DNA of 24,000 bases from Prochlorococcus marinus str. MIT 9201. Its GTDB lineage: Bacteria > Cyanobacteriota > Cyanobacteriia > PCC-6307 > Cyanobiaceae. The position numbers were made by a program, and so were the translations under genes. The DNA lies in assembly GCF_047305125.1 (NCBI RefSeq), contig NZ_CP138977.1; one strand, 5' to 3'. Each line of letters opens with the position of its first letter. Within the stretch, counting starts at the first letter, position 1. Of this stretch, positions 10,079-22,151 are shown piece by piece. A model generated the notes under the pieces. That model was not told the DNA's origin. It did not search any database and saw nothing but the letters and a program-made list of their open reading frames with translations.

Positions 10079-10083
10079 ATTTT

Positions 10084-10179
10084 TTATCTCACAAAATAAA
10101 TAATCCCACCAACAAAGGTACTACCTACAAGTAGCAAAACCATAAGAATTGCAATTAGTTTTGGTAAACTACCAATCAT
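10084..10179 (-). CDS. Small hydrophobic peptide, 31 aa (MIGSLPKLIAILMVLLLVGSTFVGGIIYFVR)
   Basis: Manual translation; single TM-like segment. Confidence 0.35.
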   Translation of the reverse strand: MIGSLPKLIAILMVLLLVGSTFVGGIIYFVR

Positions 10180-10960: not shown

Positions 10961-11259
10961 TAAATTAGCTTGTTAATTTAAATGATTCTAATATAGTAAA
11001 TTCTCTAAAAGTTAAATATTTAATAAAAATATTCCTAACTACTAAAATAACTAAAACGTAGTTAGAAATATTTTCGTTGGCTAGGTTCATAAAGACGGAA
11101 TCTATACCGTTGCAGATTCGCCAAATATCTACATATTCTTTATAAATAAAAAAATCTTTTTTAAAAAGTAAATAATATACAAGTGGATAGATATTTTTTT
11201 AATTAAAAAAGTTTATTTTTTAATCCCAAATTTATATTATTTCTTATTTAAAATATTTA

Positions 11260-11298
11260 AACCTCATTTTCTAAGATTGCGAAAAAGAAAATGAGGTT
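11260..11298. other. Perfect 12-bp inverted repeat (AACCTCATTTTC-N15-GAAAATGAGGTT)
   Basis: Read directly from the sequence. It lies in an ORF-poor ~500-bp stretch, and a second 7-bp hairpin AGTAGAT-N9-ATCTACT sits at ~11345-11367. Confidence 0.5.
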
Positions 11299-11449
11299 AA
11301 AGGGAGGTTCTCATTACAAACCGTACTTATCAAAGCTAGCGGTTAGTAGATTGCCCTAATATCTACTCCTATATTTATATAATGAATTTCTTAATTTAGA
11401 AAGATTAATTTTATACAAATAAGTGTTTAATATTTTATTTAATTATTAT

Positions 11450-11548
11450 TTAGTAAAGGCTAATTAATGCACTTGCTATGCTTATTGAAAGATGGAAAAA
11501 AGCGAAAAGAGAAACTGCAAAAAATAAACACTGTTCTATTGGAATCAT
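11450..11548 (-). CDS. Small hydrophobic peptide, 32 aa (MIPIEQCLFFAVSLFAFFHLSISIASALISLY)
   Basis: Manual translation. Downstream of 11583..11768 on the same strand. Confidence 0.3.
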   Translation of the reverse strand: MIPIEQCLFFAVSLFAFFHLSISIASALISLY

Positions 11549-11582
11549 GGCATTTAAATAAATAAAAATTGATGAAATTAAA

Positions 11583-11768
11583 TTAATTTTTTGTTAAAAA
11601 GATATTTTCCAGAATATAACTTTCTTCAATTGATTCATTTTTTTGAGTCATTTTTTTTGACAAATTATTTGTTGTATTAAAAGCACCCCATTTTCTAAGC
11701 CAATATAAGGTATAGAAAAAAGCAATAATAAAAGGAGCACCTACAACTAAGTATCTTATATCCATCAA
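11583..11768 (-). CDS. Small membrane protein (61 aa); N-terminal paralogue of 11778..12074
   Basis: ORF track. MMDIRYLVVGAPFIIAFFYTLYWLRKWGAF matches [29 protein letters not shown]. Confidence 0.5.
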   Translation of the reverse strand: MMDIRYLVVGAPFIIAFFYTLYWLRKWGAFNTTNNLSKKMTQKNESIEESYILENIFLTKN

Positions 11769-11777
11769 AATACCAAA

Positions 11778-12074
11778 TTAATAAGATTTAAACTGCATGG
11801 CCAAAATAGCACCTAAAAAGAAAACAGTAGGAATGCCTAAAGCGTTTACAGCTGCTGTTCTGACAGTAAAAACAGGATAACCTTCTGGAGGTCTGCCAGT
11901 AGCAGGAACTAGGGCAGTATCATCCCATACCTGATAGTTTTTAAAAGGAGCTACTCCCTTTTTTGGTAGTCCTAGTGGTGTCAATCTAAATACATCCCAT
12001 CTACCTAACCAAAAAACTGTAAATATCCATGAAAATACTATTGGTGTAATGACAAGTACGACTCTAAAATCCAT
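11778..12074 (-). CDS. Conserved-looking two-TM membrane protein (98 aa), function unknown
   Basis: ORF track. N- and C-terminal TM helices with a Pro/Gly-rich loop ([25 protein letters not shown]). No confident family assignment. Confidence 0.6.
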
Positions 12075-12300
12075 TTCTGTAAAAACAATAATTAATTTGG
12101 TAATTATTCTGCCCTTTTTAAATTAATAATTGATTAGATAATTAACTTATATTTATAGAAAAACACTTAATAACATTATTTTTAATCATTAATCACAAAT
12201 AATTATGATTAATTGATTATTTTTTTGTATATTTTTTTAAATAAAAATATTTGAATATTTACTTTGATGTAGATTAATTTTAATTAAAAACTAAAAAAAT

Positions 12301-12666
12301 ATGGAAACTTTTAGATTTTTACTTTTTGGAATCGCAGGAGTAAGTGTAGTATTTTGGGCGGCAGTCATAGCATTGTGGCATACTTATATGTTCCCAAAAT
12401 TCTTTAATGAAGATAAAGTTTTAAATTCAGTTATCAATCAAGAGGTCAATGTCTCAACTGAACCCATTTTAGGTAGCTTAGTTAATAGTGAAAATTTTAA
12501 AAGTAGAGATAAATATTCAATGAAAAATTTAGTTGTAGCCGATTTTTCATCAAGGAATGATTTCAAATTAAATAAACTTTATACAACTGTAATGATTGGA
12601 GTTACTTTCGCAAGTTTTATTTTTCTCACTTATGGATTAAGCAGTTCAATAACAACAGTAAGTTAA
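12301..12666 (+). CDS. Hypothetical two-TM membrane protein (121 aa)
   Basis: ORF track; no family recognised. Confidence 0.5.
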   Translation: METFRFLLFGIAGVSVVFWAAVIALWHTYMFPKFFNEDKVLNSVINQEVNVSTEPILGSLVNSENFKSRDKYSMKNLVVADFSSRNDFKLNKLYTTVMIGVTFASFIFLTYGLSSSITTVS

Positions 12667-12667
12667 T

Positions 12668-12751
12668 ATGGAATCTATATATGTAATTGTTTTTATTACT
12701 TGTTTCGTTTATTTAATTTTTGACTCATTCAAAAATATAAATATTAAATAG
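12668..12751 (+). CDS. Possible small hydrophobic peptide, 27 aa (MESIYVIVFITCFVYLIFDSFKNINIK)
   Basis: Manual translation. The ATG is 2 nt after the stop of 12301..12666. Confidence 0.25.
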   Translation: MESIYVIVFITCFVYLIFDSFKNINIK

Positions 12752-13181
12752 TTTGCTATTGTTTTTTTCCAGCTAATAAAATTTTTCTTCTTATATAAAA
12801 GAATAATAATGTAGTTATTATCATTACAGGTGGATGAAATGATATTGAATTTAAATATTCGAAGTAATCAAATGATTCCAAAATTTTTGCTCATAATTTT
12901 CTTAAACTATATTTCATCTCTCAAATTTTTATTGATTTAAATAGATCAATATCTTGTATAAAATGCTAGTTAAATTTTTCTTAACTAATATTTTCGCACA
13001 AATTACCGACAAATCATTTATTTAAATAAATAAATCCAACATAGATTTTTAGAAATACATGGAGGTTTAGATTGAAATACTTTGTTCTACTTTTTGCCTT
13101 TGAATTACTAAAAGAGATTTGGCTAAAAAAACAAAACATTTATTCCTTAGTATTTGAAATATTTTTTTAGATATTTATTCT

Positions 13182-13421
13182 TTACTTGTTAATTATTTGA
13201 TCAAGGTATTTGGCGTACAAAACATTATTCATTCGTTGGCTCATAGGAAGATAAGTTAGCAACATTAGAATTTCTTTCTCATCATTTTTAGAAATTACAT
13301 ATTGAGAATTTTGTTTCTTAATCCATAACTTACATTCACTAAATGAGGGGTAATTTGGCTCGGTATCAATAATCCAATCAGCGAGTCGATTAAATAATTC
13401 TTTTTTAACTTCTTTATTCAA
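13182..13421 (-). CDS. Hypothetical protein (79 aa), TTG start overlapping the upstream stop
   Basis: ORF track. The start codon TTG overlaps the TGA of 13418..13489 (TTGA). Confidence 0.5.
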   Translation of the reverse strand: MNKEVKKELFNRLADWIIDTEPNYPSFSECKLWIKKQNSQYVISKNDEKEILMLLTYLPMSQRMNNVLYAKYLDQIINK

Positions 13422-13489
13422 ATCAAAAAAATAATTAATATAGTTCCAATACTAAAAATCAAGCTCCAACCCTGCGAGTTGATAGTCAT
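13418..13489 (-). CDS. Small hydrophobic peptide, 23 aa (MTINSQGWSLIFSIGTILIIFLI)
   Basis: Manual translation. Paralogue of 9467..9538. Confidence 0.55.
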   Translation of the reverse strand: MTINSQGWSLIFSIGTILIIFLI

Positions 13490-13502
13490 TTAATTTACTT
13501 CT

Positions 13503-13571
13503 TTAGTAATGCAAAAGTAGCCAAAACAATCCGCATTCGCAAATAATCCCTTCCAATACTATTGCCGACAT
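13503..13571 (-). CDS. Small hydrophobic peptide, 22 aa (MSAIVLEGIICECGLFWLLLHY)
   Basis: Manual translation. Paralogue of 8035..8118. The 3' flanking DNA (TACTAAAGrAr TAAATTrAATGACTA) is also conserved between the two loci. Confidence 0.5.
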   Translation of the reverse strand: MSAIVLEGIICECGLFWLLLHY

Positions 13572-13590
13572 TAGTTTAGTAAGAGTTTCA

Positions 13591-13872
13591 TTAACAATAC
13601 AAAGCTACTGTTTGATCTAAATCTGCACAAGGTTCAATAGTAAATTCCAATAACTCTTTCCAAGGTCTCCATTGTTTCCAAATGATTTCTAGAGAATTAG
13701 CATCTACAACAGAGTAACCATTGCCATGTTGAGGTAAGAAAATCCAAGATTTAACTTCATAACCTTCTGGTCTATTTTGTGGCCCTCCTTTGTCGTACCA
13801 TTCCTTTAGCATTTTTGCTCCCTTTTCTTGGGCATTTGCATCATTGAATTTATAAGAAATTAGAAACAACAT
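13591..13872 (-). CDS. DUF3303-like small protein (93 aa)
   Basis: ORF track. The pattern ...WYDKGGP..PEGYEVKSW......W.PW.ELLEFTIEPC resembles my memory of the DUF3303 family. Tentative. Confidence 0.55.
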   Translation of the reverse strand: MLFLISYKFNDANAQEKGAKMLKEWYDKGGPQNRPEGYEVKSWIFLPQHGNGYSVVDANSLEIIWKQWRPWKELLEFTIEPCADLDQTVALYC

Positions 13873-13876
13873 AAAT

Positions 13877-13921
13877 AAAAAAAAGGAGCTAATTGCTCCT
13901 CATTTTAGATCGACTGTCAAT
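13877..13921 (-). promoter_or_regulatory. Composite junction element copy 7
   Basis: Minus strand: ATTGACAGTCGATCTAAAATGAGGAGCAATTAGCTCCTTTTTTTTATTTATG. It differs from copy 3 at one base over ~44 nt, by eye. Confidence 0.6.
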
Positions 13922-14071
13922 AATAGAAGCATTATTTTGACTAAAAATTGCAATAAAAAAGTTTTTCATAGGGTTTGACGATTTTTAATCATATAAATTT
14001 TCGATCAAAAAAATAAATAATCTTATTCTTCATCAAGATATCCTAAAGTATAAATAATAAATATTTTATTT

Positions 14072-14374
14072 ATGAGGAAATTATTTGCTGCATTCACCGT
14101 TTTCTTAAGTACGTTATTCATTTCTTCAAATTTAAATGCATCATCATTTAACTTGAAAAACGAAACTAATTATCTTACTAGTAATCTTTTAATTTCTTAT
14201 GGCGGCGGCGGCGGCGGTGGTGGTGGCGGAGGGAAGAATTCCGCAAAAGGCAGAGCGAAAGAAAAAGCAAAACTTTTATTTAAGAAAAGACAAGCAGCAA
14301 AAAAAGTTTCTGAAGGTTTACCTTTAACAGAAGAAGAAAAAAAGATCCTTTATTTTGATGAAATTGGAGATTAA
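14072..14374 (+). CDS. Secreted Gly-run / Lys-rich small protein (100 aa)
   Basis: ORF track. Signal peptide MRKLFAAFTVFLSTLFISSNLNA, a run of 11 Gly, and a basic tail. Confidence 0.6.
   Translation: MRKLFAAFTVFLSTLFISSNLNASSFNLKNETNYLTSNLLISYGGGGGGGGGGGKNSAKGRAKEKAKLLFKKRQAAKKVSEGLPLTEEEKKILYFDEIGD
14201..14233 (+). repeat. (GGN)11 trinucleotide run: (GGC)5(GGT)3 GGC GGA GGG
   Basis: Read directly from the sequence. A GC-rich microsatellite inside an AT-rich gene. Confidence 0.9.
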
Positions 14375-14395
14375 AAAAATTTAAAGGTCATAAAT

Positions 14396-14433
14396 AGAGG
14401 GTTTTATCCCTCTATATTAGATCAGCTTTTAAT
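14396..14433 (-). terminator. Composite junction element copy 8 (block degenerate: ATTAAAAGCTGATC); hairpin between convergent genes
   Basis: Minus strand: ATTAAAAGCTGATCTAATATAGAGGGATAAAACCCTCT. It lies between the stops of 14072..14374 (+) and 14443..14832 (-), so it is a likely bidirectional terminator. Confidence 0.5.
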
Positions 14434-14442
14434 ATTACCTAA

Positions 14443-14832
14443 TTAAAGTCTGCTGTAGCCTAATTTTGACTGAAAAACTTTAAAGGAAACACCTGTTCCT
14501 TTCATTACTTCGAGACATTTATCCCCAACTGTTCCATATACTTCAACAGTAAAATCATCAGCAAGTTTTGGATGCTCTTTTAAATATTCACCTATTGCTG
14601 GATTGGCCAAGTGAGCGATAAAAGCATCATCATTTTTATAAGCCTCAGACCACACAAAGTTCAGAGGATTTTCTGGATCCTGATCAAAAGTATGATGTAA
14701 CATTCCTGGCTCAACAGCCTTAACGGCTTTATCTGTTTTATCTGCAAGTTCTAAATACTCAGAAACTTTATTTTCTTTTACTGTGATTTTTGCTAAAAGA
14801 ATAAAAGGGGTATCTGCTCCGAAATTTGTCAT
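14443..14832 (-). CDS. ABM-domain (antibiotic biosynthesis monooxygenase-like, dimeric alpha/beta barrel) protein
   Basis: 129 aa. ...MLHHTFDQDPENPLNFVWSEAYKNDDAFIAHLANPAIGEYL fits the ABM pattern (H..D....f.f.E.y.d..A...H). Confidence 0.7.
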   Translation of the reverse strand: MTNFGADTPFILLAKITVKENKVSEYLELADKTDKAVKAVEPGMLHHTFDQDPENPLNFVWSEAYKNDDAFIAHLANPAIGEYLKEHPKLADDFTVEVYGTVGDKCLEVMKGTGVSFKVFQSKLGYSRL

Positions 14833-14871
14833 GAATAAAAATAGTTTTAATTATATTATTAATTTTTTAAT

Positions 14872-14914
14872 AAAAAAGAGGGTTTTATCCCTCTATGTTA
14901 GATCTACTGTCAAT
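14872..14914 (-). promoter_or_regulatory. Composite junction element copy 9
   Basis: Minus strand: ATTGACAGTAGATCTAACATAGAGGGATAAAACCCTCTTTTTT. Two mismatches relative to copy 1. It lies upstream of 14443..14832. Confidence 0.6.
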
Positions 14915-15135
14915 TATTAAAAATACCTCCTACGAGGTCTTCTAAAAAAATTGTCATTTTTAATGAAATTTGCTTTTATGAGTGAAGAGTTATTTTTATT
15001 ATGCAAATCTCATTTTTTGCAAAAGTAGTTTTTTTTAAATCTTTATTGTATTTCTGATTTATCAATCAAAAATAATATTTTGAGAAAAGTAATGAATAGA
15101 GCTAACAGAGCTAAAATTTTTAAACTTCCCAATTA

Positions 15136-15249
15136 ATGGAATTTTTAACTAATTTCTGGAATAATCAACCCAATACAGTTATTGGAATAGGTGTGGCAAT
15201 ATTTGTGTTATTAGGGATTTATATATCTTTACTCCAGACATACCAATAA
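15136..15249 (+). CDS. Small membrane peptide, 37 aa (MEFLTNFWNNQPNTVIGIGVAIFVLLGIYISLLQTYQ)
   Basis: Manual translation. Paralogue of 9357..9470. Confidence 0.6.
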   Translation: MEFLTNFWNNQPNTVIGIGVAIFVLLGIYISLLQTYQ

Positions 15250-15250
15250 G

Positions 15251-15568
15251 TTAGTTAATTATCTTTTTAATTTTTTCTAGATTCCATTTATCAAATATTA
15301 ATTTCATTTCTCTTTCGTAGTATCTTACTTTCTTAGCAAAAGGAAGTTGTTGAATAATTATCCCAAAGGGAAATTTAAAGAAAGAAGAGACATAAACAAT
15401 ATAAAACTCGACAAATGAAGGCTTTGGTGGGAGAGGTAAATTTTTTATATATGCCCAATCAATGCAGGGTTTTAGTTGCTTATCACTAGCGATAATATTT
15501 TTTTTACATCTCCACCAAGAGAATAGATAAATGCAAATAAAAATCGGTAACGGAAGAAGTCGCAACAT
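15251..15568 (-). CDS. Hypothetical membrane protein (105 aa)
   Basis: ORF track; no family recognised. Confidence 0.45.
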   Translation of the reverse strand: MLRLLPLPIFICIYLFSWWRCKKNIIASDKQLKPCIDWAYIKNLPLPPKPSFVEFYIVYVSSFFKFPFGIIIQQLPFAKKVRYYEREMKLIFDKWNLEKIKKIIN

Positions 15569-15598
15569 TAATTAAAAAGTTATTTCTTCAAGAGTTAT

Positions 15599-15796
15599 TT
15601 ATTCAGGATAAACAAACATCATACCTATCCCTGATATTTCTTTATCTTTTTTAAGAGAAAATTTTTTATTAGAATTCACGTAACCTGCATAATCTCGGGC
15701 ATCTGAAATTTTTTTATGTAATTCATCAGATATTCCAGCATGAACTGAAGTAGATAAAGTAAGTGCAGATATTGGTGGGAATAGCGGTCTTTTCAT
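15599..15796 (-). CDS. Hypothetical small secreted protein (65 aa)
   Basis: ORF track. Signal-like N-terminus. It starts 4 nt after the stop of 15800..16105. Confidence 0.4.
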   Translation of the reverse strand: MKRPLFPPISALTLSTSVHAGISDELHKKISDARDYAGYVNSNKKFSLKKDKEISGIGMMFVYPE

Positions 15797-15799
15797 TTG

Positions 15800-16105
15800 T
15801 TAATCACAACAATCGTCCTTTGTTAATGAAGCGGTCCAAGAGGTTTCCTCCATTGTTGACAAGTCAACTCTATGAGTTGCCATCCAGTCACCATTGGCTT
15901 CCACAAACTTTTGAACATTGCCTTCTGGAGCTTGATGAATAACAATTATTTTTTGAGGATCTTCCTTGCTTACTCCTCTGAAAAGTGGCTTAATATCAAA
16001 TTCTGAATGCCTTTTATCTGCTTCCGCACTATCAAATATTGCAGCCCATTCATCGAAAGTGCTTTCAATTTTAAAAGTAAACACGGAGGTAACTGAACAA
16101 GACAT
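15800..16105 (-). CDS. Small soluble protein (101 aa); paralogue of 19500..19778
   Basis: The track ORF 15800..16147 is trimmed to ATG 16103-16105 because the 5' extension reads through element copy 10. MSCSVTSVFTFKIESTFDEWAAIFDS aligns with MSIETTVFTFKISVPFEEWAAVYDS. Confidence 0.65.
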   Translation of the reverse strand: MSCSVTSVFTFKIESTFDEWAAIFDSAEADKRHSEFDIKPLFRGVSKEDPQKIIVIHQAPEGNVQKFVEANGDWMATHRVDLSTMEETSWTASLTKDDCCD

Positions 16106-16148
16106 AAAAAAGGAGCTAATTGCCTCTAATTGTAGATCGACTGTCAAT
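16106..16148 (-). promoter_or_regulatory. Composite junction element copy 10 (chimeric hairpin arms)
   Basis: Minus strand: ATTGACAGTCGATCTACAATTAGAGGCAATTAGCTCCTTTTTTATG. The 5' arm is of the AGAGG type and the 3' arm of the GCTCCT type. Confidence 0.6.
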
Positions 16149-16162
16149 CAGATGAATATTAT

Positions 16163-17107
16163 TTAAGATGCCCAATCGCAAGGTTTAGAGTATTTTTTAT
16201 AAATTTCAGCATGACCCTCTTGAACTAGCAGTTGTTGAAGATTCTCTCCATTAAGACTTAATTCACCTACGGTCCTTCCATACTTATCCTCAGTCACCCT
16301 ACGAATTGATACTTTCTCGCCCTTAATCATTTCATTTAAGAAATTTTTTGCCGCTATTGCCTCATTTGGCTTTGCTCTTTTCCCTTTTATTTCGGGAGTA
16401 TCGATACAAGCTAATCTTATTTTTTCGCCTTCACTTGAAGTACAGGTATCTCCGTCATAACAATCTTTGATTATAATTTCTCCATTCTCCGGTCTATTTG
16501 ATTTTCTACCAAGAGCTTCGCAGGCTTCCCCATCATTATCTCTATCAAGATAAGCGTGTCCTGCTTGGAGAAACTTTTGAGCTTCTGACCAATCACCAAT
16601 GTCTCCACATCTTTGTTTCTCTCTTTCTGATAAGGGGACTTTCTTACATTCTGGAAAGTCAGAAGCTTCAGACCCTTCATAAATACATGATATTTCACCA
16701 CTAGTGAAGTTATAGAAAAAAGAGGGTTGTTTTTTTAAATCTTCAGGAATTATTGATACAAGTGAAAAATTCTCATTACCAATACAGTTATTGCTTTCCT
16801 CATTATCAAATTCATAACCAATTAACTTTGAAGGGGTGAATGTTAACTCTCTTCCCAGAGAATTATTACTTTCGCACTCGATTTTTATATTTAAGATTGA
16901 ATTTGCAGCTATTACTTTCTCTGCTTTTTGGATAACTTCAAGAAATCTAGGTAAAGCAATAATTCCAAGGATTGAACATACTCCAATAACAGTTATCAAC
17001 TCAATTGAGCTAAAACCTACGTTTGATTTAGTTAATTTTTTAAATAAATACAACAAAAAAGGAATTTTTCTTATTAGTTTAAATCTGCTTTCAATTAAAT
17101 TAATCAT
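16163..17107 (-). CDS. Pilin-like N-terminus + Excalibur Ca-binding domain + staphylococcal-nuclease (SNase/thermonuclease) domain
   Basis: SNVG|FSSIELITVIGVCSILGIIALP gives the G/FxxxE motif plus a hydrophobic helix. CGDIGDWSEAQKFLQAGHAYLDRDNDGEACEAL is Excalibur-like. DGDT...IRLACIDTPE...EDKYGRTVGEL...LVQEGHAEIY matches the SNase motifs DGDT, RL.giDtPE and DkYGR. The true start may be an internal TTG giving a shorter leader. Confidence 0.8.
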   Translation of the reverse strand: MINLIESRFKLIRKIPFLLYLFKKLTKSNVGFSSIELITVIGVCSILGIIALPRFLEVIQKAEKVIAANSILNIKIECESNNSLGRELTFTPSKLIGYEFDNEESNNCIGNENFSLVSIIPEDLKKQPSFFYNFTSGEISCIYEGSEASDFPECKKVPLSEREKQRCGDIGDWSEAQKFLQAGHAYLDRDNDGEACEALGRKSNRPENGEIIIKDCYDGDTCTSSEGEKIRLACIDTPEIKGKRAKPNEAIAAKNFLNEMIKGEKVSIRRVTEDKYGRTVGELSLNGENLQQLLVQEGHAEIYKKYSKPCDWAS

Positions 17108-17160
17108 ATTGTTAAAACTAGTAAGAGTTTTTCTATAATTTCGCGGCTTAACCCCAAAGA

Positions 17161-17883
17161 CTAGTCAAATGTTTTTGAAGAGTTTTCTAGTAATAAATTT
17201 AGTTCTAAAAGTTCTTTTTTAGTAAATTCACGATATTTTCCTATTGGTACGTCTAATTTAATATTCATAATTCTTACACGCTTTAATGAAAGTACTCTGT
17301 AGCCTAATGACTGACACATTCTCCTAATCTGACGATTAAGTCCTTGCGTGAGTATGATCTTGAATTTTTTTGGTCCCAACTTTTCTACAAAACAATTCCT
17401 AGTTATGGTGTCTAATATTTCAACTCCATTACTCATCCTTTTAATAAACTCTCTACTAATCAAACGATTAACACTTACAATATATTCTTTTTCATGATTA
17501 TTTCTTGCTCTTAGTATTTTATTCACGATATTTCCATCATTAGTTAAAAAAATTAAACCCTCGCTGGGCTTATCCAATCTTCCAATAGGAAAAATTCTTT
17601 TAGGATATTTAATGAAATCTATAACATTATTGGGTTCTACTCTTGTATCAGTTGTGCAAACAATTCCAACAGGTTTATTAAAGGCTAAGTATATATTTTT
17701 TTGTTTTGATAATTTTTCTATTCTTTGACCTTTGACTTCTACTTGGTCATCTTCATCTACCTTGGCTCCAATCTTTGATATTTCCCCATTAATAGTAACT
17801 TTTCCTTCTTTAACTAATCTATCTGCAACTCTTCTAGAACAATAACCAACTTCGCTTAAATATTTATTTATCCTGGTAGCCAT
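17161..17883 (-). CDS. Pseudouridine synthase, RsuA/RluB/RluF family, with an N-terminal S4 domain
   Basis: RINKYLSEVGYCSRRVADRLVKEGKVTINGE is the S4 domain, and PIGRLDKPSEGLIFLTNDG carries the catalytic Asp motif. Confidence 0.9.
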   Translation of the reverse strand: MATRINKYLSEVGYCSRRVADRLVKEGKVTINGEISKIGAKVDEDDQVEVKGQRIEKLSKQKNIYLAFNKPVGIVCTTDTRVEPNNVIDFIKYPKRIFPIGRLDKPSEGLIFLTNDGNIVNKILRARNNHEKEYIVSVNRLISREFIKRMSNGVEILDTITRNCFVEKLGPKKFKIILTQGLNRQIRRMCQSLGYRVLSLKRVRIMNIKLDVPIGKYREFTKKELLELNLLLENSSKTFD

Positions 17884-17924
17884 ATTGGGTATTTCTTTTT
17901 ATCTCCCTAAATTATTTAATTAAT

Positions 17925-17953
17925 TACTTCTTATTTTAGATCAGCTGTCAAAC
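17925..17953 (-). promoter_or_regulatory. Composite junction element copy 11 (block + TAAAAT; hairpin decayed)
   Basis: Minus strand: GTTTGACAGCTGATCTAAAATAAGAAGTAATTAATT. It lies ~45 nt upstream of the pseudouridine synthase ATG. Confidence 0.5.
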
Positions 17954-18016
17954 TAAGTGAATATTAAAGACATTAGATTTAGATTAATATTAACCAGGGA
18001 TTTTTGGAGAGCGCAC

Positions 18017-18274
18017 CTAACTCTCTTTTTTTTTCCAAACTTCTTCAATTTTAGTCCATCCTTGGGAAAGTAATCTTTCATAAATTTCTCTTGCCAAATC
18101 TATATCTACTGAAACTGTATTTGTCATTACAGGTGGTTCTTTTCCGGATATGTCCAATATTTTTCCAGTATCCACAAACATATACTCGAAGACACCACTT
18201 ATACTCTTATCGTTTCTCATAAATCTCTTCACTTCTGTTCTGTTTGAATTAATCAACCAGTAAGATTTAGACAT
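18017..18274 (-). CDS. Hypothetical 85-aa protein (paralogue of 9538..9795)
   Basis: ORF track. See 9538..9795. It lies 32 nt downstream of the SRAP gene on the same strand. Confidence 0.6.
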   Translation of the reverse strand: MSKSYWLINSNRTEVKRFMRNDKSISGVFEYMFVDTGKILDISGKEPPVMTNTVSVDIDLAREIYERLLSQGWTKIEEVWKKKES

Positions 18275-18306
18275 TAATTAGGGGATAGAGTTAGTATGCA
18301 TTCAAT

Positions 18307-18945
18307 TTAAAACAAACTCATTTGATTAGTTTCTTTTTTGTTAATATTTTCTACTAACCATCCATCAGGTGACCAACCCATCATAATTGGAAGTAAACCA
18401 TTTAATTCAACAGTATCTTTAACCTGCTCAGTCCATTGCTCCTCTAAACCATTGGGAACAACAACAGGCATGCGATGATGAAAAGGTTTAATTAATTCAT
18501 TTGGTTCAGTTGTTAAGATACAGCAACTCTCTAACTCAGCGCCATCTGGAGAGGTCCACTTGCTCCAGATTCCTCCTAACCAAAACGTTTCATAATTCTC
18601 TTTTCGAATACGATATTTTTTTTCAAAAAACCCACTTGCTGGTATTAAACACCTTTTATATTTCCAACTTCCACTAAATAATCTTTTTTCTTCTATGCTT
18701 TCTGATCTTGCATTAAATGGTCTTGGCCTTTTTTTGTCAAATGGGTCGTAAGTCCAAGGTGAAATAAACCCCCATGACATGAAAGTAGTCTTAATTCTTC
18801 CTTCGTTTTTGACTACAAGTACAGGATCAGTTGGTCTTATTAAATTTTGAATATCATATCTAGTTTGAAGTCCCTTTGGATAATCTTGTTTCAGAATCTT
18901 TGGTAAATCATCAAACTTGGTTTTCAGCTCAAATCTTCCACACAT
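18307..18945 (-). CDS. SOS-response-associated peptidase (SRAP / YedK / DUF159) family protein
   Basis: The N-terminal MCGRF (catalytic Cys2) is the family hallmark, and the 212-aa length is typical. Confidence 0.9.
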   Translation of the reverse strand: MCGRFELKTKFDDLPKILKQDYPKGLQTRYDIQNLIRPTDPVLVVKNEGRIKTTFMSWGFISPWTYDPFDKKRPRPFNARSESIEEKRLFSGSWKYKRCLIPASGFFEKKYRIRKENYETFWLGGIWSKWTSPDGAELESCCILTTEPNELIKPFHHRMPVVVPNGLEEQWTEQVKDTVELNGLLPIMMGWSPDGWLVENINKKETNQMSLF

Positions 18946-18976
18946 TTATTTTTTAAAATCTTTTTAAAAACTCTTT

Positions 18977-19018
18977 AAAAATCGAGCTAATTATTCCTAT
19001 TTTAGATTGATTGTCAAT
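18977..19018 (-). promoter_or_regulatory. Composite junction element copy 12 (decayed hairpin)
   Basis: Minus strand: ATTGACAATCAATCTAAAATAGGAATAATTAGCTCGATTTTT. This is clearly a decayed AGGAGCAATTAGCTCCT-type copy. It lies upstream of the SRAP gene. Confidence 0.55.
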
Positions 19019-19144
19019 ATTCAATAATTAAAAAATATAAATCCTTTTTGATGGTCATAAAAGGGTCTTCATTTAATAGTTAAGAGAACATGTAGATATT
19101 GAAAAGTTTTCTCAAATTTTATTTCAATCTTACACAATTAATCT

Positions 19145-19294
19145 ATGACAGATCCTATCTTTTATTTATCAATGTTCCTTGGGCTGGGAGGAGTATATGT
19201 TTTAATATCTTCTTTCAATGATGATGATGATGATAGCGATGATGATGGAGAAAGAGATATTTATAATTTTGAATTAGCAAGCTTAGCCAAGTAA
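19145..19294 (+). CDS. Possible small protein, 49 aa, with a TM segment and poly-Asp tract (MTDPIFYLSMFLGLGGVYVLISSFNDDDDDSDDDGERDIYNFELASLAK)
   Basis: Manual translation; ATG start. Confidence 0.35.
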   Translation: MTDPIFYLSMFLGLGGVYVLISSFNDDDDDSDDDGERDIYNFELASLAK

Positions 19295-19350
19295 TTTACG
19301 AGATAGCAAAACTATAACAGGAATTAGTAAGACAAGTATTCTTCTCATTT

Positions 19351-19390
19351 TCAACTATTTTCAACTATTTTCTACTATTTTCTACTATTT
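19351..19390. repeat. 10-bp tandem repeat x4 (tcaactattt x2, tctactattt x2)
   Basis: Read directly from the sequence. It overlaps the 3' end of the small ORF 19365..19454. Confidence 0.9.
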
Positions 19391-19454
19391 TTAAAAATAA
19401 GTTTGTGTAGTTTGCAAAAACTAATAAAAGCAAGAGAAATGTATTAATTGTCAT
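19365..19454 (-). CDS. Possible small hydrophobic peptide, 29 aa (MTINTFLLLLLVFANYTNLFLKIVENSRK)
   Basis: Manual translation. DNA-level similarity to 7385..7516 (shared tttaaaaataagtttgt and aactaataa.agcaa). Confidence 0.3.
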   Translation of the reverse strand: MTINTFLLLLLVFANYTNLFLKIVENSRK

Positions 19455-19499
19455 TTTAAGAGGAGAGTGTTGCACCCTCTAATGTAGATCGACAATCAA
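19455..19499 (-). promoter_or_regulatory. Composite junction element copy 13 (TTGATT variant)
   Basis: Minus strand: ATTGATTGTCGATCTACATTAGAGGGTGCAACACTCTCCTCT. It begins directly at the TAA stop of 19500..19778. Confidence 0.5.
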
Positions 19500-19778
19500 T
19501 TAAAAGTAGCTCGATATAACAGTTGAATCATAAATATGACCAGCTCCCTCAATTAATGGTTTAACTGCTGGATCTTCAAACATAGCAATTGATTTACCTT
19601 CCTCACCCTGCTCAATAAGAATTACACTAGTTGGATCATCTTTCTTTACACCTTTGTATAAGCAAATAATTCCACGTTCTTTATTCATTTGTATATTTTC
19701 TTCACTGTCATAAACCGCAGCCCATTCTTCAAAAGGGACACTAATTTTGAAAGTAAAAACAGTAGTTTCAATTGACAT
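19500..19778 (-). CDS. Small soluble protein (92 aa); paralogue of 15800..16105
   Basis: ORF track. N-terminal alignment with 15800..16105. Confidence 0.65.
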   Translation of the reverse strand: MSIETTVFTFKISVPFEEWAAVYDSEENIQMNKERGIICLYKGVKKDDPTSVILIEQGEEGKSIAMFEDPAVKPLIEGAGHIYDSTVISSYF

Positions 19779-19972
19779 AAAAAAACACTAATTAATTTTA
19801 ATTTTATATCTCCTCACCAATATTTCTACTTAAATTATTATCAAAAGAAGGTACTTGGTCGTAAGGGTGATTTTAAAGAGGATTTATCATCCAGAAATAA
19901 CAATAATAATTTTCGGAGATATTCAATAAAGAACATCAAACCCTCTACTATAATTTCCTTTTGATTAATTAC

Positions 19973-21126
19973 TTTTTAGTGTTTTGGTAACAATCGCTAG
20001 ATTTTATGTCTCAAATTATGTTAACTTCTTAAAAATTTAAAAATAAGTGAAATTACCTAAAGCCCTCTCTCTTATTCCCTTAGCTTTTGGTTCTATTCTG
20101 TCTGTTTCTGCCCAAGAATATAAATTTGATAATATCAAATTTGATCAGGTTGAAGACTCTCAGAATACATATCAACCAAAAGATAAATTAGATGAATACA
20201 TAATTAAAGGAGCAACTTACTCTACAAAATTTGTTCCTTTAATGAACGATGGCTCTGACGGAAGTGATTACACAAACATGATGAGCAAAGATGCCAAGAG
20301 ATTATTAGTTGATAAGGGATTTAATTTTGTTAATTCCACCGCTAATAGTCAAATCCAGAAAATTCCATTCTTTGCTCAAACAACAGTTAATTTCTCTGGC
20401 GGAACAGAATCAGATACCAGTTTCTCAGTTAATAGCTTGATGAAACTTGGAGAACTTGCAAAAGATGACGAAGGCGATCTTAAAACACTCGTCTTCTCTC
20501 AAGCAAGATTTGCAACTGCAACAGATGCAGAAGGCTCCACAGTTAACTTAGGTTTAGGTATTAGAAATCGTCCTGACGATGTATCGATGGTTGGAGGTAA
20601 CGTTTTCTTAGACTACAGAATGACAGACTACAGCGATGCTCATAGCAGACTTGGTCTTGGTGGAGAATATTTTTGGAAAGATTTTGAATTTAGAAATAAC
20701 TGGTATATGGCAATTACTGATGAAAAAGATGTAACTATTGATGGGAGTTCTTTTGTAGAAAGAGTAGTACCTGGATGGGATCTAGAAGTTGGCTACAGAT
20801 TACCAAGCAATCCAGAACTTGCTTTCTTTGTTAGAGGTTTTAATTGGGACTATAAATATACTCAAGACAACTCAGGTTTAGAAGGTGCAGTTAGCTGGCA
20901 AGCAACTCCTCATGTTGGTTTAGAAGCTTTTGTTTCTAATGAAATTTCTGCTGCATCTACAACTGCTAATACTGACCTACCAGGAACAGATGAAACTTTC
21001 TTTGGTTTAAGAATGAACATTACTGGTAATCCTGTGAAGTTTGAGAAATCAAATTATAAGAAGAACATGATTACTCAAATGACTCAGCCTGTAAAACGTA
21101 AATATGATGTTTTACTTGAAAGAGCT
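19973..21126 (+). repeat. 1154-bp direct repeat, copy 1 (offset 2184 bp to copy 2)
   Basis: Side-by-side reading found only two mismatches (19981 g/a and 20259 c/t). Identity ends abruptly after ...gaaagagct. Confidence 0.85.
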
Positions 21127-21177
21127 GCTACAGATGGCAGTGGAGTTGCTTTCCAAAATAGAGCTAAAGGGGTATAA
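20047..21177 (+). CDS. Inverse-autotransporter (intimin/invasin-type) beta-barrel domain protein with no passenger, copy 1
   Basis: GTG start immediately after an in-frame TAA gives the signal peptide (M)KLPKALSLIPLAFGSILSVSA|QE. LVFSQARFATATDAEGSTVNLGLGIRNR...GGNVFLDYRM..SDAHSRLGLGGEYFWKDFEFRNNWYM...ERVVPGWDLEVGYRLPSNPELAFFVRGFNWDY...RKYDVLLER parallels the intimin/invasin beta-domain (NlGlG.R, N.F.DY....h.RlG.G.EYWrDylk.saNgY, ERpanGwD....gYLP..PqL, RydLveR). Confidence 0.8.
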   Translation: MKLPKALSLIPLAFGSILSVSAQEYKFDNIKFDQVEDSQNTYQPKDKLDEYIIKGATYSTKFVPLMNDGSDGSDYTNMMSKDAKRLLVDKGFNFVNSTANSQIQKIPFFAQTTVNFSGGTESDTSFSVNSLMKLGELAKDDEGDLKTLVFSQARFATATDAEGSTVNLGLGIRNRPDDVSMVGGNVFLDYRMTDYSDAHSRLGLGGEYFWKDFEFRNNWYMAITDEKDVTIDGSSFVERVVPGWDLEVGYRLPSNPELAFFVRGFNWDYKYTQDNSGLEGAVSWQATPHVGLEAFVSNEISAASTTANTDLPGTDETFFGLRMNITGNPVKFEKSNYKKNMITQMTQPVKRKYDVLLERAATDGSGVAFQNRAKGV

Positions 21178-21233
21178 ATATGGACCTGCATGAATATTCA
21201 AATTTTAATTTTTTCAAAACTTCAATTAAAAAA

Positions 21234-22151
21234 ATGAAACCAAAACAATATCTCATGAAGAATATAAATTCAATTTTAATTGGATTTGGTTTATTAGGTT
21301 TTGCTTCTTTTGCAAATACCGCTAAAGCCGATGAATTCACTCCTGATAAATGTATAGATGCAATCGGAGAAAAAGTTGATGGTAAATATACAAAAACAGC
21401 TGCACAAATTAATAATCTTAATGTCTTTTTTTGTACAGAAACTCCTGAAAGATTTGAAATTACTATCCATGAATTGGGACTGTGTACTTCTCCACCTATT
21501 ACTATTACAGAAAATTCAGAAACATTTAGCAAGGATAATTGCGTCACAACAATGGCAAGTGATGGAATCGCGGCTGATTTAGCTAGTGGTCTAGTTGCTT
21601 TACCATCAATGGACGGAAGGCCTGAATCAAATACATACTCACATGCGTACATTATCATTACGAATACATTTGGATTAAGAGGTAGTGTTACCATAAAAGA
21701 TGCCAATACAGGCGCTTATAATACTTATTGCTCTATGACTGATGAAGATCAATTCGGATCTAATTCTACAGGACCTACAACTGGTGGCAGCTTATGTACG
21801 CCAGAAAATCATACGGAGATCCTAGATACTTTTGGAAGTACAGATGAAAATGGGGTTCATACTTTTGATGCTTATTTCCCTGATGAATCAATGGATGGAG
21901 GTGGTAAAGTATCAGCTCTTCTTACCAAGGGCGATGCAAATTTAACAACTGCTCAAAATCAAGGCGAGGTGGAGAGACTAATTGGCGTTTTTGAGACTAA
22001 TTCTGGTTCTCCTGTTGTTATAAATGACGCTACTAATGGTTTAGAAATGGAATTAACAGTTACTGATATTGGTTACGGAATTGCATTTGGCGGCGGTGAA
22101 CCTATCTATTTCGGATCAATGCCATTTAAACCTATATTTTCTACTTTTTAA
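21234..22151 (+). CDS. Secreted Cys-containing 'partner' protein A (family of 1298..2158)
   Basis: The track ORF 21180..22151 is trimmed to ATG 21234 (or 21255), giving the signal peptide MKPKQYLMKNINSILIGFGLLGFASFANTAKA|DEF. Family motifs IHELGLCTSPP and the C-terminal PIFSTF are present. Confidence 0.7.
   Translation: MKPKQYLMKNINSILIGFGLLGFASFANTAKADEFTPDKCIDAIGEKVDGKYTKTAAQINNLNVFFCTETPERFEITIHELGLCTSPPITITENSETFSKDNCVTTMASDGIAADLASGLVALPSMDGRPESNTYSHAYIIITNTFGLRGSVTIKDANTGAYNTYCSMTDEDQFGSNSTGPTTGGSLCTPENHTEILDTFGSTDENGVHTFDAYFPDESMDGGGKVSALLTKGDANLTTAQNQGEVERLIGVFETNSGSPVVINDATNGLEMELTVTDIGYGIAFGGGEPIYFGSMPFKPIFSTF

What the first reader, a model, noticed from the sequence alone, without database searches (positions are those of the whole stretch)
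16163..17107. Pilin-like signal fused to Excalibur and SNase domains: a possibly pilus-, pseudopilus- or membrane-presented extracellular nuclease
The protein begins with a prepilin-type motif (G|FSSIE plus a hydrophobic helix). It then carries a Cys-rich linker, an Excalibur-like Ca-binding motif (DRDNDGEACE) and a complete-looking staphylococcal nuclease domain (DGDT, RLACIDTPE, DKYGRTVGE).

SNase is Ca-dependent and extracellular, so the domain combination is coherent. Delivery via a type IV pilin-like leader is unusual. Possible roles are scavenging of DNA phosphorus, processing of incoming DNA, or degradation of phage or foreign DNA at the cell surface.

The gene starts 53 nt downstream of the stop of the pseudouridine synthase gene and has no junction element of its own, so it is probably co-transcribed from element copy 11.
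Basis: partly seen in the sequence, partly recalled or inferred. Interest (0 to 1): 0.7.

Follow-up and report, generated by a model that had tools for sequence, protein, structure and literature searches.

The report
Type IV pilin carrying a nuclease
A gene in the marine cyanobacterium Prochlorococcus MIT9201 joins the building block of type IV pili to a calcium-binding motif and a DNA-cutting enzyme, so the cell probably displays a nuclease on or beside its pili; such a pilin has never been studied.

Summary
The minus-strand ORF 16163-17107 scores above Pfam's cut-offs for SNase and Excalibur. It begins with a class III (prepilin) signal: G|FSSIE here, and the canonical G|FSLIE in nearly all orthologs.

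AlphaFold predicts a 51-residue helix followed by a beta-sheet. About 100 distant relatives share this domain but carry other C-terminal modules, such as lectin, discoidin and propeller domains. The protein is therefore a modular type IV pilin whose effector is a nuclease.

The window is Prochlorococcus MIT9201 (HLII). A published table lists pilA1, pilB, pilC and pilQ for this strain but no comEA or comEC. All six fusion-carrying genomes I could check have pilus genes. Three genomes in which I found only the stand-alone, Sec-signal nuclease have none. In one single-cell genome the fusion lies 0.9 kb from the prepilin peptidase gene and the pilus operon. All three modules are under purifying selection (dN/dS 0.09-0.20).

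Corrections: the conserved start is the TTG at 17053 (296 aa). A decayed junction element overlies the 5' end. Adjacency to the pseudouridine synthase gene is not conserved. The nuclease lacks the C-terminal helix of the S. aureus enzyme.

Display on the pilus and the biological role remain untested.

The parts
16163..17053 (-). Coding sequence of the pilin-Excalibur-SNase protein read from the conserved TTG start (296 aa plus stop codon 16163-16165)
   Evidence: The TTG lies 12 codons before the cleavage-site Gly and is conserved in 16 of 17 sequences compared (window plus 16 loci, some redundant; L009 has TTA). Most homologs are called at 296 aa. Eleven orthologs have 296 codons with no indel or stop.
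17054..17107 (-). Eighteen-codon extension if the upstream ATG is used (314-aa reading); probably untranslated
   Evidence: This stretch lies inside a decayed copy of the intergenic junction element, and MINLIESRFKLIRKIPFL is that element's translation. The extension is shared with the 89%-identical P0002; other upstream extensions in homologs are unrelated in sequence.
17015..17053 (-). Leader peptide (M)YLFKKLTKSNVG, ending in the Gly at position -1 of the prepilin peptidase site
   Evidence: G13 and F14 are invariant in orthologs and at least 90% conserved in distant relatives. Matches to solved pilins start at F14, which is their mature residue 1.
16616..17014 (-). Mature pilin module (residues 14-146): F+1, E+5, hydrophobic alpha1-N, a long alpha1 helix, then a beta-sheet domain with conserved Cys60, Cys90, Cys123 and Cys136
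   Evidence: AlphaFold (pLDDT 77-95 over most of this module, falling to about 65 at its C-terminal end) gives helix 16-66 and strands 80-82, 98-103, 111-115 and 120-126. About 100 relatives at 28-40% identity cover query residues 3-147. N_methyl is found in 61 of 70 relatives. The module is 36% identical over 128 aa (E=2e-20) to MIT9201's own lectin-type pilin. dN/dS is 0.20.
16517..16615 (-). Excalibur calcium-binding domain (residues 147-179, motif DRDNDGEACE)
   Evidence: Pfam PF05901 scores 24.3-24.5 bits against a cut-off of 22 and is found in 14 of 14 orthologs. The structural model is weak here (pLDDT 49-65). A sister family of ~198-aa pilin+Excalibur proteins ends right after this domain.
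16166..16486 (-). SNase-type nuclease module with its short preceding linker (residues 190-296; Pfam match 211-290), lacking the C-terminal helix of S. aureus nuclease
   Evidence: Pfam E=4.4e-15. Alignment to 1a2t shows all catalytic and Ca2+-ligand residues. pLDDT is 85-97. Foldseek matches S. aureus nuclease structures at E~2e-6, TM(target) 0.64-0.69. The nearest relatives are 127-172-aa Prochlorococcus thermonucleases at 60-67% identity. dN/dS is 0.09.
16104..16160 (-). Intact copy of the repeated intergenic 'junction element', directly after the stop codon
   Evidence: It belongs to repeat families D2, D4 and D7 and aligns with nine other copies. On the minus strand it reads ATTGACAGTCGATCTA, then an imperfect hairpin, then a T-run.
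17051..17126 (-). Decayed copy of the same junction element, overlapping the 5' end of the gene
   Evidence: It is 61% identical to the 76-nt reference copy (family D3). The alignment shows the shared core ATTGAaAGcaGATtTAAA and the left arm TTACTA.

Best explanation
The gene encodes a modular type IV pilin whose effector module is a calcium-dependent nuclease.

Shown by computation:
- The N-terminus is a class III (prepilin) signal with Gly at -1, Phe at +1, Glu at +5 and a hydrophobic alpha1-N.
- Residues 14-146 form a full pilin module. This module serves as a common 'carrier' in a large family of marine pilins with interchangeable C-terminal modules.
- Residues 147-296 are an Excalibur motif followed by a compact SNase domain with every catalytic and Ca2+-binding residue.
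- The host, Prochlorococcus MIT9201, is listed in a published table as having pilus genes. A related genome places the gene beside pilD and the pilus operon.

Inferred:
1. The prepilin inserts into the cytoplasmic membrane with its C-terminal part in the periplasm.
2. PilD cuts after Gly13 and methylates Phe14.
3. The ten conserved cysteines form disulfides. The nuclease becomes active only outside the cytoplasm, where Ca2+ is abundant.
4. The pilus machine lifts the protein out of the membrane as a low-abundance (minor) subunit, most likely at the pilus tip because of its bulk.
5. The pilus, or at least the pilus base, thereby carries a nuclease that cuts dissolved DNA.

The most likely use is breakdown of environmental DNA for nutrients, or keeping the long pili free of DNA. 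Processing of DNA for transformation is less likely.
For: Domains and catalytic residues.

Class III signal:
- G13, F14 and E18 are invariant in orthologs and conserved in distant relatives.
- N_methyl is found in 12 of 14 orthologs, and TIGR02532 scores above its cut-off in orthologs.
- The module profile hits solved T4a pilins from their residue 1.

Pilin fold: the AlphaFold model has pLDDT 80.3, with helix 16-66 followed by strands 80-82, 98-103, 111-115 and 120-126.

Carrier family:
- 237 representative proteins match the N-terminal query (E<=1e-3), many with lengths of 140-689 aa.
- Among 70 of them, Pfam finds Lectin_C in 14, F5/8 type C in 4, SNase+Excalibur in 2, and FG-GAP, PD40 and an RCC1-like domain in 1 each.

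Host machinery:
- The window is 100% identical to MIT9201 contig JNAL01000013.1 over 14,146 bp.
- MIT9201 has PilA1, a lectin-type pilin, PilC, PilQ and PilB (PMC7994388 Supplementary Data 1).
- In L024 the fusion lies 0.9 kb from a gene with A24_N_bact (113.9 bits) and Peptidase_A24 (48.3 bits) matches, and next to genes for pilins, PilB, PilT, PilC and PilM.

Co-occurrence:
- Five of five fusion-carrying SAGs in the published table, plus MIT9201, have pilus genes, against 14-24% of HL SAGs overall.
- MIT0604, MIT9107 and AG-347-K20, in which I found only the stand-alone Sec-signal nuclease, have none.
- Other pilin genes lie within 10 kb in 4 of 10 distinct loci.

Selection: dN/dS is 0.20 for the pilin module, 0.12 for Excalibur and 0.09 for SNase across 11 orthologs, with no indels.

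Abundance: 596 homologous protein clusters (E<=1e-3) were found; the 120 listed come mostly from ENA, JGI and TARA assemblies, and those traced to genomes are Prochlorococcus.
Against: - Nothing here shows cleavage, methylation, export or incorporation into a filament.
- The window's allele (GFSSIE) misses the N_methyl and TIGR02532 models.
- pilD itself was not checked in MIT9201. The published table lists only PilA1, PilE, PilB, PilC and PilQ.
- The nuclease lacks the C-terminal helix that stabilises the S. aureus enzyme, so its activity is assumed, not shown.
- The Excalibur region is modelled poorly (pLDDT 49-65), and pTM is 0.49, so the arrangement of the domains is unknown.
- The co-occurrence sample is small (nine genomes) and rests on another group's BLAST table.
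Confidence: 0.65

Rival explanations
1. The protein is a membrane-tethered periplasmic nuclease. The pilin-like N-terminus, cleaved or not, only anchors the protein in the cytoplasmic membrane. It stays in the membrane pilin pool, is never or rarely polymerised, and cuts DNA that reaches the periplasm.
For: The module is bulky: the mature protein has 283 residues. No evidence of assembly exists. Precedents for surface-anchored SNase-type nucleases include the lipoprotein thermonuclease MMJJ_16440 of Methanococcus maripaludis (PMC10133366). The stand-alone Prochlorococcus nuclease already uses an ordinary Sec signal, so export does not need a pilus.
Against: A plain anchor would not need an invariant Gly at -1, Phe at +1 and Glu at +5, nor a conserved 130-residue pilin globular domain under purifying selection (dN/dS 0.165). 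Nor would it need to track pilus genes so closely. The same carrier module bears lectin and discoidin domains, which make sense only if exposed outside the cell.
Confidence: 0.2
2. The protein is a DNA-entry nuclease for natural transformation. It rides on a competence-type pilus and cuts or trims incoming DNA before uptake.
For: Type IV pili take up DNA in other cyanobacteria (PMC7994388 introduction). An anchored thermonuclease is required for pilus-dependent transformation in M. maripaludis. PilT is present in the L024 cluster.
Against: The published table lists no ComEA, ComEC or PilA3 for MIT9201, nor for the ~92%-complete fusion-carrying SAGs AG-402-O16 and AG-355-P07. No com genes lie in the 10-kb flanks of any locus. 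Marine picocyanobacteria are not known to be competent.
Confidence: 0.1
3. The protein is a secreted, released nuclease. The pilin-like N-terminus routes it to the type IV pilus / type II secretion-like machine, and the nuclease part is then shed into the medium by cleavage in a linker.
For: Pilus and type II secretion machineries are related. The two short linkers (residues ~137-148 and 180-189) are basic and could be protease sites (read directly from the sequence). The region around the Excalibur domain is modelled as flexible.
Against: No protease site is known. The stand-alone nuclease already provides a free secreted form, so a fusion that only re-creates it has no evident advantage. The linker sequences are conserved rather than variable.
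Confidence: 0.08
4. The fusion is a non-functional accident: a chance junction, a pseudogene or a mis-called ORF in a shuffled genomic island.
For: The gene lies in a mosaic island of small cassettes with decayed repeats. One metagenomic copy is frameshifted (P0278).
Against: All eleven orthologs have 296 codons with no stop or indel. dN/dS is 0.09-0.20 in every module. Homologs form 596 clusters, and a 54%-identical ortholog keeps the same architecture (P0121). All catalytic residues and 10 cysteines are invariant.
Confidence: 0.02

Closest known systems
Modular type IV pilins, e.g. Streptococcus sanguinis PilB (pilin + vWA) and PilC (pilin + lectin) (Raynaud et al. 2021, PMC8179133)
   Same: A small N-terminal pilin module with a class III signal is joined by a short linker to a functional domain that is not specific to pili. 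That paper's InterPro survey lists more than 1,200 such proteins in 264 architectures, including a single IPR012902-IPR016071 (pilin-SNase-like) entry.
   Different: The effector here is a nuclease with an Excalibur motif, not a binding domain. No pilin-nuclease has been described or tested. The host is a diderm planktonic phototroph. The carrier module belongs to its own marine family with swapped effectors.
Staphylococcus aureus nuclease (thermonuclease, PF00565) and the Excalibur-containing B. subtilis YokF (the latter from my own knowledge of the Pfam Excalibur description)
   Same: The OB-fold core is shared, together with Ca2+ ligands D21, D40 and T41 and catalytic residues R35, E43 and R87, all present. 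The pairing of SNase with Excalibur in extracellular nucleases is known.
   Different: Identity is only ~24%. The C-terminal helix is absent. Excalibur lies N-terminal to the nuclease. Export is through a prepilin signal rather than a Sec or lipoprotein signal.
Stand-alone Prochlorococcus 'thermonuclease family protein' (127-172 aa; e.g. MIT 0604, MIT 9107, CUG1439)
   Same: It is 60-67% identical to the fusion's nuclease module and ends with the same short C-terminus (...C.W..). It occupies the same island neighbourhood, next to DUF1651 genes.
   Different: It has an ordinary Sec signal peptide and no pilin or Excalibur part. It is found in strains without pilus genes.
~198-aa pilin+Excalibur proteins of marine metagenomes and Prochlorococcus SAGs (P0272, P0280, P0324)
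   Same: They share the same pilin carrier family (38-41% identity) and have an Excalibur domain at the same place.
   Different: They end right after the Excalibur domain and carry no nuclease. They look like the scaffold to which a resident thermonuclease was added, or from which it was lost.
Extracellular or anchored nucleases linked to DNA use: Vibrio cholerae Dns/Xds (PMC3212620, title only seen here) and M. maripaludis MMJJ_16440 (PMC10133366)
   Same: These nucleases act outside the cytoplasm. MMJJ_16440 is an SNase-family enzyme tethered at the surface and functionally tied to a type IV-like pilus.
   Different: None of them is itself a pilin. Their tethers are lipid anchors, or they are free secreted proteins.

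Membership tests
Type IV pilin / type IV filament subunit (class III signal peptide) | Short hydrophilic leader ending in Gly (or Ala), then Phe at +1 and Glu at +5 | tested here: met
   The sequence reads ...KSNVG|FSSIE. G13, F14 and E18 are invariant in 14 orthologs. Among 70 distant relatives E18 is invariant and G13 and F14 are at least 90% conserved.
Type IV pilin / type IV filament subunit (class III signal peptide) | About 21 mostly hydrophobic residues after the cleavage site, forming the N-terminal half of a ~50-residue alpha1 helix | tested here: met
   FSSIELITVIGVCSILGIIALP can be read directly from the sequence. AlphaFold gives helix 16-66 with pLDDT 77-95. Profile matches to solved pilins begin at their residue 1.
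Type IV pilin / type IV filament subunit (class III signal peptide) | Match to the curated motif models (Pfam N_methyl PF07963, NCBIfam TIGR02532) | tested here: inconclusive
   The window's allele does not hit either model. Twelve of 14 orthologs hit N_methyl. P0003, P0056 and P0121 pass the TIGR02532 cut-off.
Type IV pilin / type IV filament subunit (class III signal peptide) | Globular alpha/beta pilin domain (antiparallel sheet packed on alpha1-C, usually with a disulfide-bounded C-terminal region) | tested here: inconclusive
   The predicted topology fits: strands 80-82, 98-103, 111-115 and 120-126, and conserved Cys60, Cys90, Cys123 and Cys136. No structure search against pilins was possible. 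Sequence matches to solved pilins cover only alpha1.
Type IV pilin / type IV filament subunit (class III signal peptide) | Prepilin peptidase and an assembly machine encoded in the same genome | tested here: met
   MIT9201 has PilA1, PilB, PilC and PilQ (PMC7994388 Supplementary Data 1), but its pilD was not examined. In L024 pilD, pilB, pilT, pilC and pilM adjoin the fusion.
Type IV pilin / type IV filament subunit (class III signal peptide) | Cleavage and N-methylation by PilD, and incorporation into a filament | not testable with these tools
   This needs proteomics of pili or a PilD co-expression assay.
Modular pilin (sense of Raynaud et al. 2021) | N-terminal pilin module plus at least one extra domain not specific to pilus biology | tested here: met
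   The pilin module (residues 1-146) is followed by Excalibur and SNase. The same carrier appears with Lectin_C, F5/8 type C, FG-GAP and PD40 modules.
SNase / thermonuclease family (PF00565) | Profile match above the curated cut-off, and the OB-fold | tested here: met
   The match scores 56.3 bits against a cut-off of 21. Foldseek matches S. aureus nuclease at E~2e-6, TM(target) 0.64-0.69. Model positions 83-107 (the C-terminal helix) are not matched.
SNase / thermonuclease family (PF00565) | Ca2+ ligands (D21, D40, T41) and catalytic residues (R35, E43, R87) | tested here: met
   D202, D218 and T219 are the Ca2+ ligands; R213, E221 and R260 are the catalytic residues. They align and are invariant.
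SNase / thermonuclease family (PF00565) | Ca2+-dependent hydrolysis of DNA/RNA | not testable with these tools
   This needs recombinant protein.
Excalibur domain (PF05901) | Profile match and the DxDxDGxxCE motif | tested here: met
   The match scores 24.3 bits against a cut-off of 22. The motif DRDNDGEACE is present. The domain is found in 14 of 14 orthologs. Calcium binding was not tested.
Competence (DNA-entry) nuclease systems | Co-occurrence with the DNA-uptake genes comEA and comEC | tested here: not met
   No ComEA or ComEC entries appear for MIT9201, AG-402-O16 or AG-355-P07 in the published table. This rests on that study's BLAST, not on my own scan.

The most novel reading that the evidence does not exclude
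Prochlorococcus pili may be enzymatically armed 'fishing lines'. A nuclease-bearing minor pilin would ride on the micrometre-long pili of the ocean's most abundant phototroph. Dissolved DNA that the pili meet would be cut and, on retraction, delivered to the cell surface as a phosphorus and nitrogen source. The nuclease pilin would be one cassette in a swappable set (lectin, discoidin, propeller, nuclease) that genomic islands exchange to retool the pilus.
Probability: 0.2. Interest if true: 0.85.

Novelty: new variant of a known kind. Interest (0 to 1): 0.62.

Why it matters
[quoted passage not shown] An enzyme built into a pilin would add catalysis to what a pilus can do. Peptidase-bearing pilins have so far only been predicted from databases.

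In Prochlorococcus the pili are thought to serve flotation and escape from grazers. A nuclease on them would link pili to the turnover of dissolved DNA, a large pool of organic phosphorus in nutrient-poor oceans.

The gene is common in marine metagenomes. It sits in the exchangeable island fraction of the genome. It also occurs in a cultured strain (MIT9201), so the idea can be tested directly by proteomics of sheared pili and by a simple nuclease assay.

The wider family of carrier pilins with swapped modules suggests that wild populations customise their pili by exchanging cassettes.

Tried and rejected
- A first AlphaFold run on 14 near-identical orthologs was unusable (pLDDT 42.5). A second run with 59 sequences, including distant pilin and nuclease relatives, gave pLDDT 80.3.
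- A Pho-box scan (three YTTAAYYW repeats, 11-bp phase) upstream of the gene in the window and 11 loci gave best scores of 16-19 out of 24. That is what chance gives in 250 nt of this AT-rich DNA. There is no evidence of PhoB control.
- The promoter/terminator scan found no sigma-70-like site on the minus strand between the pseudouridine synthase gene and the fusion, and no terminator there. This neither proves nor excludes co-transcription.
- Rfam (gathering thresholds) and ARAGORN found nothing in the window, so the junction element is not a catalogued RNA.
- A scan of viral contigs found no relative of the fusion, so it is not evidently phage-borne.
- The exact-sequence look-up of a neighbouring window protein (DUF2079) found nothing. 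The cluster-member look-up gave no organism names for the distant relatives, so their taxonomy is unknown apart from the marine/TARA sources.
- I considered that the fusion might be a gene-calling artefact joining two genes. I rejected this because the frame is continuous and conserved in 11 genomes.
- I considered a type II secretion pseudopilin. The family models gave only weak alpha1-level hits to GspG and GspH, and the adjacent machinery in L024 includes PilT and PilM, which fits a pilus.
Full report
**What is there.** The finding is a minus-strand ORF at window 16163..17107 (314 aa from ATG). Pfam places an SNase domain at residues 229-308 (E=4.9e-15, 56.3 bits, cut-off 21). It places an Excalibur domain at residues 165-197 (E=3.9e-5, 24.3 bits, cut-off 22). 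The 53-nt gap to the stop of the upstream pseudouridine synthase gene is correct for the ATG start. That gene (17161..17883) is RluF-like (304.5 bits).

**Organism.** Relatives found in genomes are all Prochlorococcus of the high-light clades. The exact protein, in the same gene context, is in NCBI assembly GCA_000759955.1, contig JNAL01000013.1. That contig is 100% identical to window 6163-20308 over 14,146 bp. JNAL00000000 is Prochlorococcus MIT9201, clade HLII (Biller et al. 2014, PMC4421930). The window is therefore from a cultured strain.

**Start codon and leader.**
- Most of the homologs listed are 296 aa long. The search found 596 homologous clusters in all.
- In 16 of 17 sequences compared (window plus 16 loci, some redundant) a TTG lies 12 codons before the cleavage-site glycine; L009 has TTA there.
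- The 18 extra codons of the ATG reading lie inside a decayed copy of the window's repeated intergenic element (17051-17126).
- I therefore take the TTG at 17053 as the start. This gives a 13-residue leader, (M)YLFKKLTKSNVG. Numbering below follows this 296-aa form.

**The N-terminus is a prepilin signal.**
- G13, F14 and E18 (positions -1, +1 and +5) are invariant in 14 orthologs. In 70 distant relatives E18 is invariant and G13 and F14 are at least 90% conserved.
- The window's allele reads GFSSIE, whereas nearly all orthologs read GFSLIE.
- This explains why the window copy misses Pfam N_methyl and TIGR02532. Twelve of 14 orthologs hit N_methyl, and orthologs pass the TIGR02532 cut-off.
- A profile of the module matches solved type IV pilins starting exactly at their mature residue 1. 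Examples are Geobacter PilA-N (8.7e-15), M. xanthus PilA (1.1e-10) and PAK pilin (4e-10). Neisseria PilE, MshA and PpdD also match, and GspG matches weakly.
- The published study of picocyanobacterial pili notes that GFSLxE is the Prochlorococcus variant of the PilA1 motif (PMC7994388).

**The 'Cys-rich linker' is the pilin's globular domain.**
- I searched residues 1-187 against 1.84 billion representative proteins. This gave 237 hits, 101 of them at E<=1e-10. About 100 align over residues 3-147 at 28-40% identity, while their total lengths range from 140 to 689 aa.
- In 70 of them Pfam finds N_methyl in 61. As C-terminal modules it finds Lectin_C in 14, F5/8 type C in 4, SNase+Excalibur in 2, and FG-GAP, PD40 and an RCC1-like domain in 1 each.
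- The module alignment shows conserved C60, F72, Y80, C90, P110 and C136, and a signature IK.ECE at the end of the helix.
- With a 59-sequence alignment AlphaFold gives mean pLDDT 80.3. The model has helix 16-66 and then strands 80-82, 98-103, 111-115 and 120-126 (pLDDT 77-95 over most of the module). This is the layout of a type IV pilin.
- I could not confirm the fold by structure search.
- MIT9201's own 'PilE' in the published table is a 345-aa lectin-type member of this family. It is 36% identical to the fusion's module over 128 residues (E=2e-20).

**The nuclease.**
- The alignment to S. aureus nuclease puts D200, D202 and T203 on D19, D21 and T22. R213 falls on R35, and D218, T219 and E221 fall on D40, T41 and E43. 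Y258 and R260 fall on Y85 and R87. All are invariant.
- The modelled domain (pLDDT 85-97) matches S. aureus nuclease structures (E~2e-6, TM 0.64-0.69).
- One caveat: the protein ends eight residues after the residue aligned to Y115. It therefore lacks the last helix of the S. aureus enzyme, and Pfam matches only model positions 1-82 of 107.
- The nearest relatives share this short form. They are 127-172-aa Prochlorococcus 'thermonuclease family' proteins at 60-67% identity, and the one I read (L013) has an ordinary Sec signal.
- A sister family of ~198-aa proteins consists of the same pilin carrier plus Excalibur and stops there.
- The fusion thus looks like a pilin-Excalibur scaffold joined to the resident secreted nuclease. 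This is an inference.
- Ten cysteines are invariant, which fits a protein that folds outside the cytoplasm.

**Is the gene functional?** Eleven orthologs have 296 codons with no indel or stop. Pairwise dN/dS (Nei-Gojobori, 55 pairs) is 0.20 for the pilin module, 0.12 for Excalibur plus linkers and 0.09 for the nuclease. The low value for the pilin globular part (0.165) contrasts with the hypervariable C-terminal part reported for the major pilin PilA1. This suggests a minor pilin.

**Does the host have the machinery?** In the supplementary table of Aguilo-Ferretjans et al. 2021, MIT9201 has PilA1, the lectin-type pilin, PilC, PilQ and PilB. It has no PilA2, PilA3, ComEA or ComEC. Only 14-24% of high-light SAGs have pilus genes. 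The table below sets out the genomes I could check.

| Genome | Nuclease form found | Pilus genes in published table |
|---|---|---|
| MIT9201 | fusion | yes |
| AG-402-N10 | fusion | yes |
| AG-388-D03 | fusion | yes |
| AG-402-O16 | fusion | yes |
| AG-355-P07 | fusion | yes |
| AG-418-K17 | fusion | yes |
| MIT0604 | stand-alone only | none |
| MIT9107 | stand-alone only | none |
| AG-347-K20 | stand-alone only | none |

In assembly GCA_902585675.1 (locus L024) the fusion lies 0.9 kb from a prepilin peptidase gene (A24_N_bact 113.9 bits, Peptidase_A24 48.3 bits). It is also next to genes for two pilins, PilB, PilT, PilC and PilM. Other pilin genes, including a Lectin_C pilin, lie within 10 kb in L001, L003/L018 and L005. 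pilD itself was not examined in MIT9201.

**What is it for?** The evidence is thin.
- Against a role in transformation: no ComEA or ComEC is listed for MIT9201, AG-402-O16 or AG-355-P07.
- For phosphorus scavenging: in two lineages the gene lies 1.1 kb and 6.4 kb from pstS, which scores above the TIGR00975 cut-off, beside arsJ, gap and an ArsR-type gene.
- However, a Pho-box scan was at chance level, and the position varies between genomes.
- A surface-anchored thermonuclease needed for pilus-dependent DNA uptake in Methanococcus shows that such nucleases can work with pili (PMC10133366).

**Context and transcription.**
- The gene sits in a mosaic island of small cassettes that recur in shuffled order in other genomes.
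- The order SRAP, DUF1651, pseudouridine synthase, then fusion is kept in L006 and L009, but with 3.2-3.4 kb inserted before the fusion. L004 has 4.8 kb between, and L002 has the synthase gene on the other strand.
- Most genomes have their own conserved sequence upstream of the fusion.
- In L001-L003 and L006-L008 the cassette is followed by GAGGGAA-type repeats and a partial tRNA 3' end. The same GAGGGAA repeat also precedes the gene in most of these loci, though not in L003.
- In the window an intact junction element follows the stop codon (16104-16160) and a decayed one overlies the 5' end. The statement 'no junction element of its own' is therefore not correct.
- Co-transcription with the synthase gene remains open.

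**Comparison with what is known.**
- Modular pilins are an established class. Raynaud et al. 2021 found more than 1,200 of them in 264 architectures. Their dataset lists one IPR012902-IPR016071 (pilin-SNase-like) protein, which the paper does not discuss.
- Full-text searches found no paper describing a pilin-nuclease or the Prochlorococcus protein.
- I file the protein as a new variant of a known kind: a modular type IV pilin with a nuclease effector, belonging to a marine carrier family with exchangeable modules.

Noticed in passing
On the minus strand it reads ATTGACAGTCGATCTAAAAT, followed by a short G+C hairpin and a T-run. It usually sits just after the stop of minus-strand genes. It has no Rfam match. 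The hairpin plus T-run suggests a terminator-containing cassette boundary.
   Followed up: partly
window 624-705, 1060-1141, 2430-2511, 6451-6532: There are four direct repeats of a tRNA 3' half (…GGTCGCAGGTTCGAATCCTGTCGCCCCGA…), but ARAGORN finds no intact tRNA in the window. They look like scars of repeated integrations at a tRNA gene, as described for Prochlorococcus genomic islands and tycheposon-type elements (from my own knowledge).
   Followed up: no
L001, L002, L003, L006, L007, L008: immediately after the fusion's stop codon, and about 80 nt upstream of its start in most of these: In other genomes the fusion gene is followed by the repeat TTTGAGGGAAnTTTGAGGGAAA and then a reverse-oriented partial tRNA 3' end. 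In most of them (not L003) the same repeat also precedes the gene. The gene may therefore travel as a discrete island cassette. The window lacks these repeats and has the junction element instead.
   Followed up: partly
window 20047-21177 and 22231-23367, with 21180-22151 in between: These are two tandem genes for inverse-autotransporter beta-domain (porin-like) proteins. They are 98% identical over 373 aa and differ only at the extreme C-terminus. A 323-aa ORF without family matches separates them.
   Followed up: partly
proteins P0272, P0280, P0324, P0126 (marine metagenomes and Prochlorococcus SAG contigs): An abundant ~198-aa protein family (one 90% cluster has 287 members) consists of the same pilin carrier, an acidic Asp/Asn-rich linker and an Excalibur domain, with nothing after it. 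A calcium-binding pilin of unknown role.
   Followed up: partly
proteins P0133-P0258 (representative library); L003 5025-6062; Pro_MIT9201_0077: The carrier pilin module occurs with C-type lectin, F5/8 type C (discoidin), FG-GAP, PD40 propeller and RCC1-like modules, with long coiled-coil-like tails, and with many C-termini that have no family match. This is a largely unannotated repertoire of modular pilins.
   Followed up: partly
window 11778-12074 (minus strand): A 98-aa island ORF has a C-terminal match to the cytochrome b559 (PsbE/PsbF) family (E=3.7e-8, 33.1 bits, cut-off 30). It recurs at 89-91% identity in L007, L008 and L012, next to the same neighbouring ORFs.
   Followed up: no
window 19346-19393: A short tandem array of a 10-nt unit (TATTTTCAAC / TATTTTCTAC) lies upstream of the DUF3764 gene at 19500-19778 (family D10).
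   Followed up: no
proteins P0415 and P0501 (stand-alone SNase relatives): Some stand-alone Prochlorococcus-type thermonucleases carry an N-terminal His/Cys-rich segment (…GCHN.KK…YHCH…) before the nuclease domain. This is another N-terminal variant of the same enzyme.
   Followed up: no
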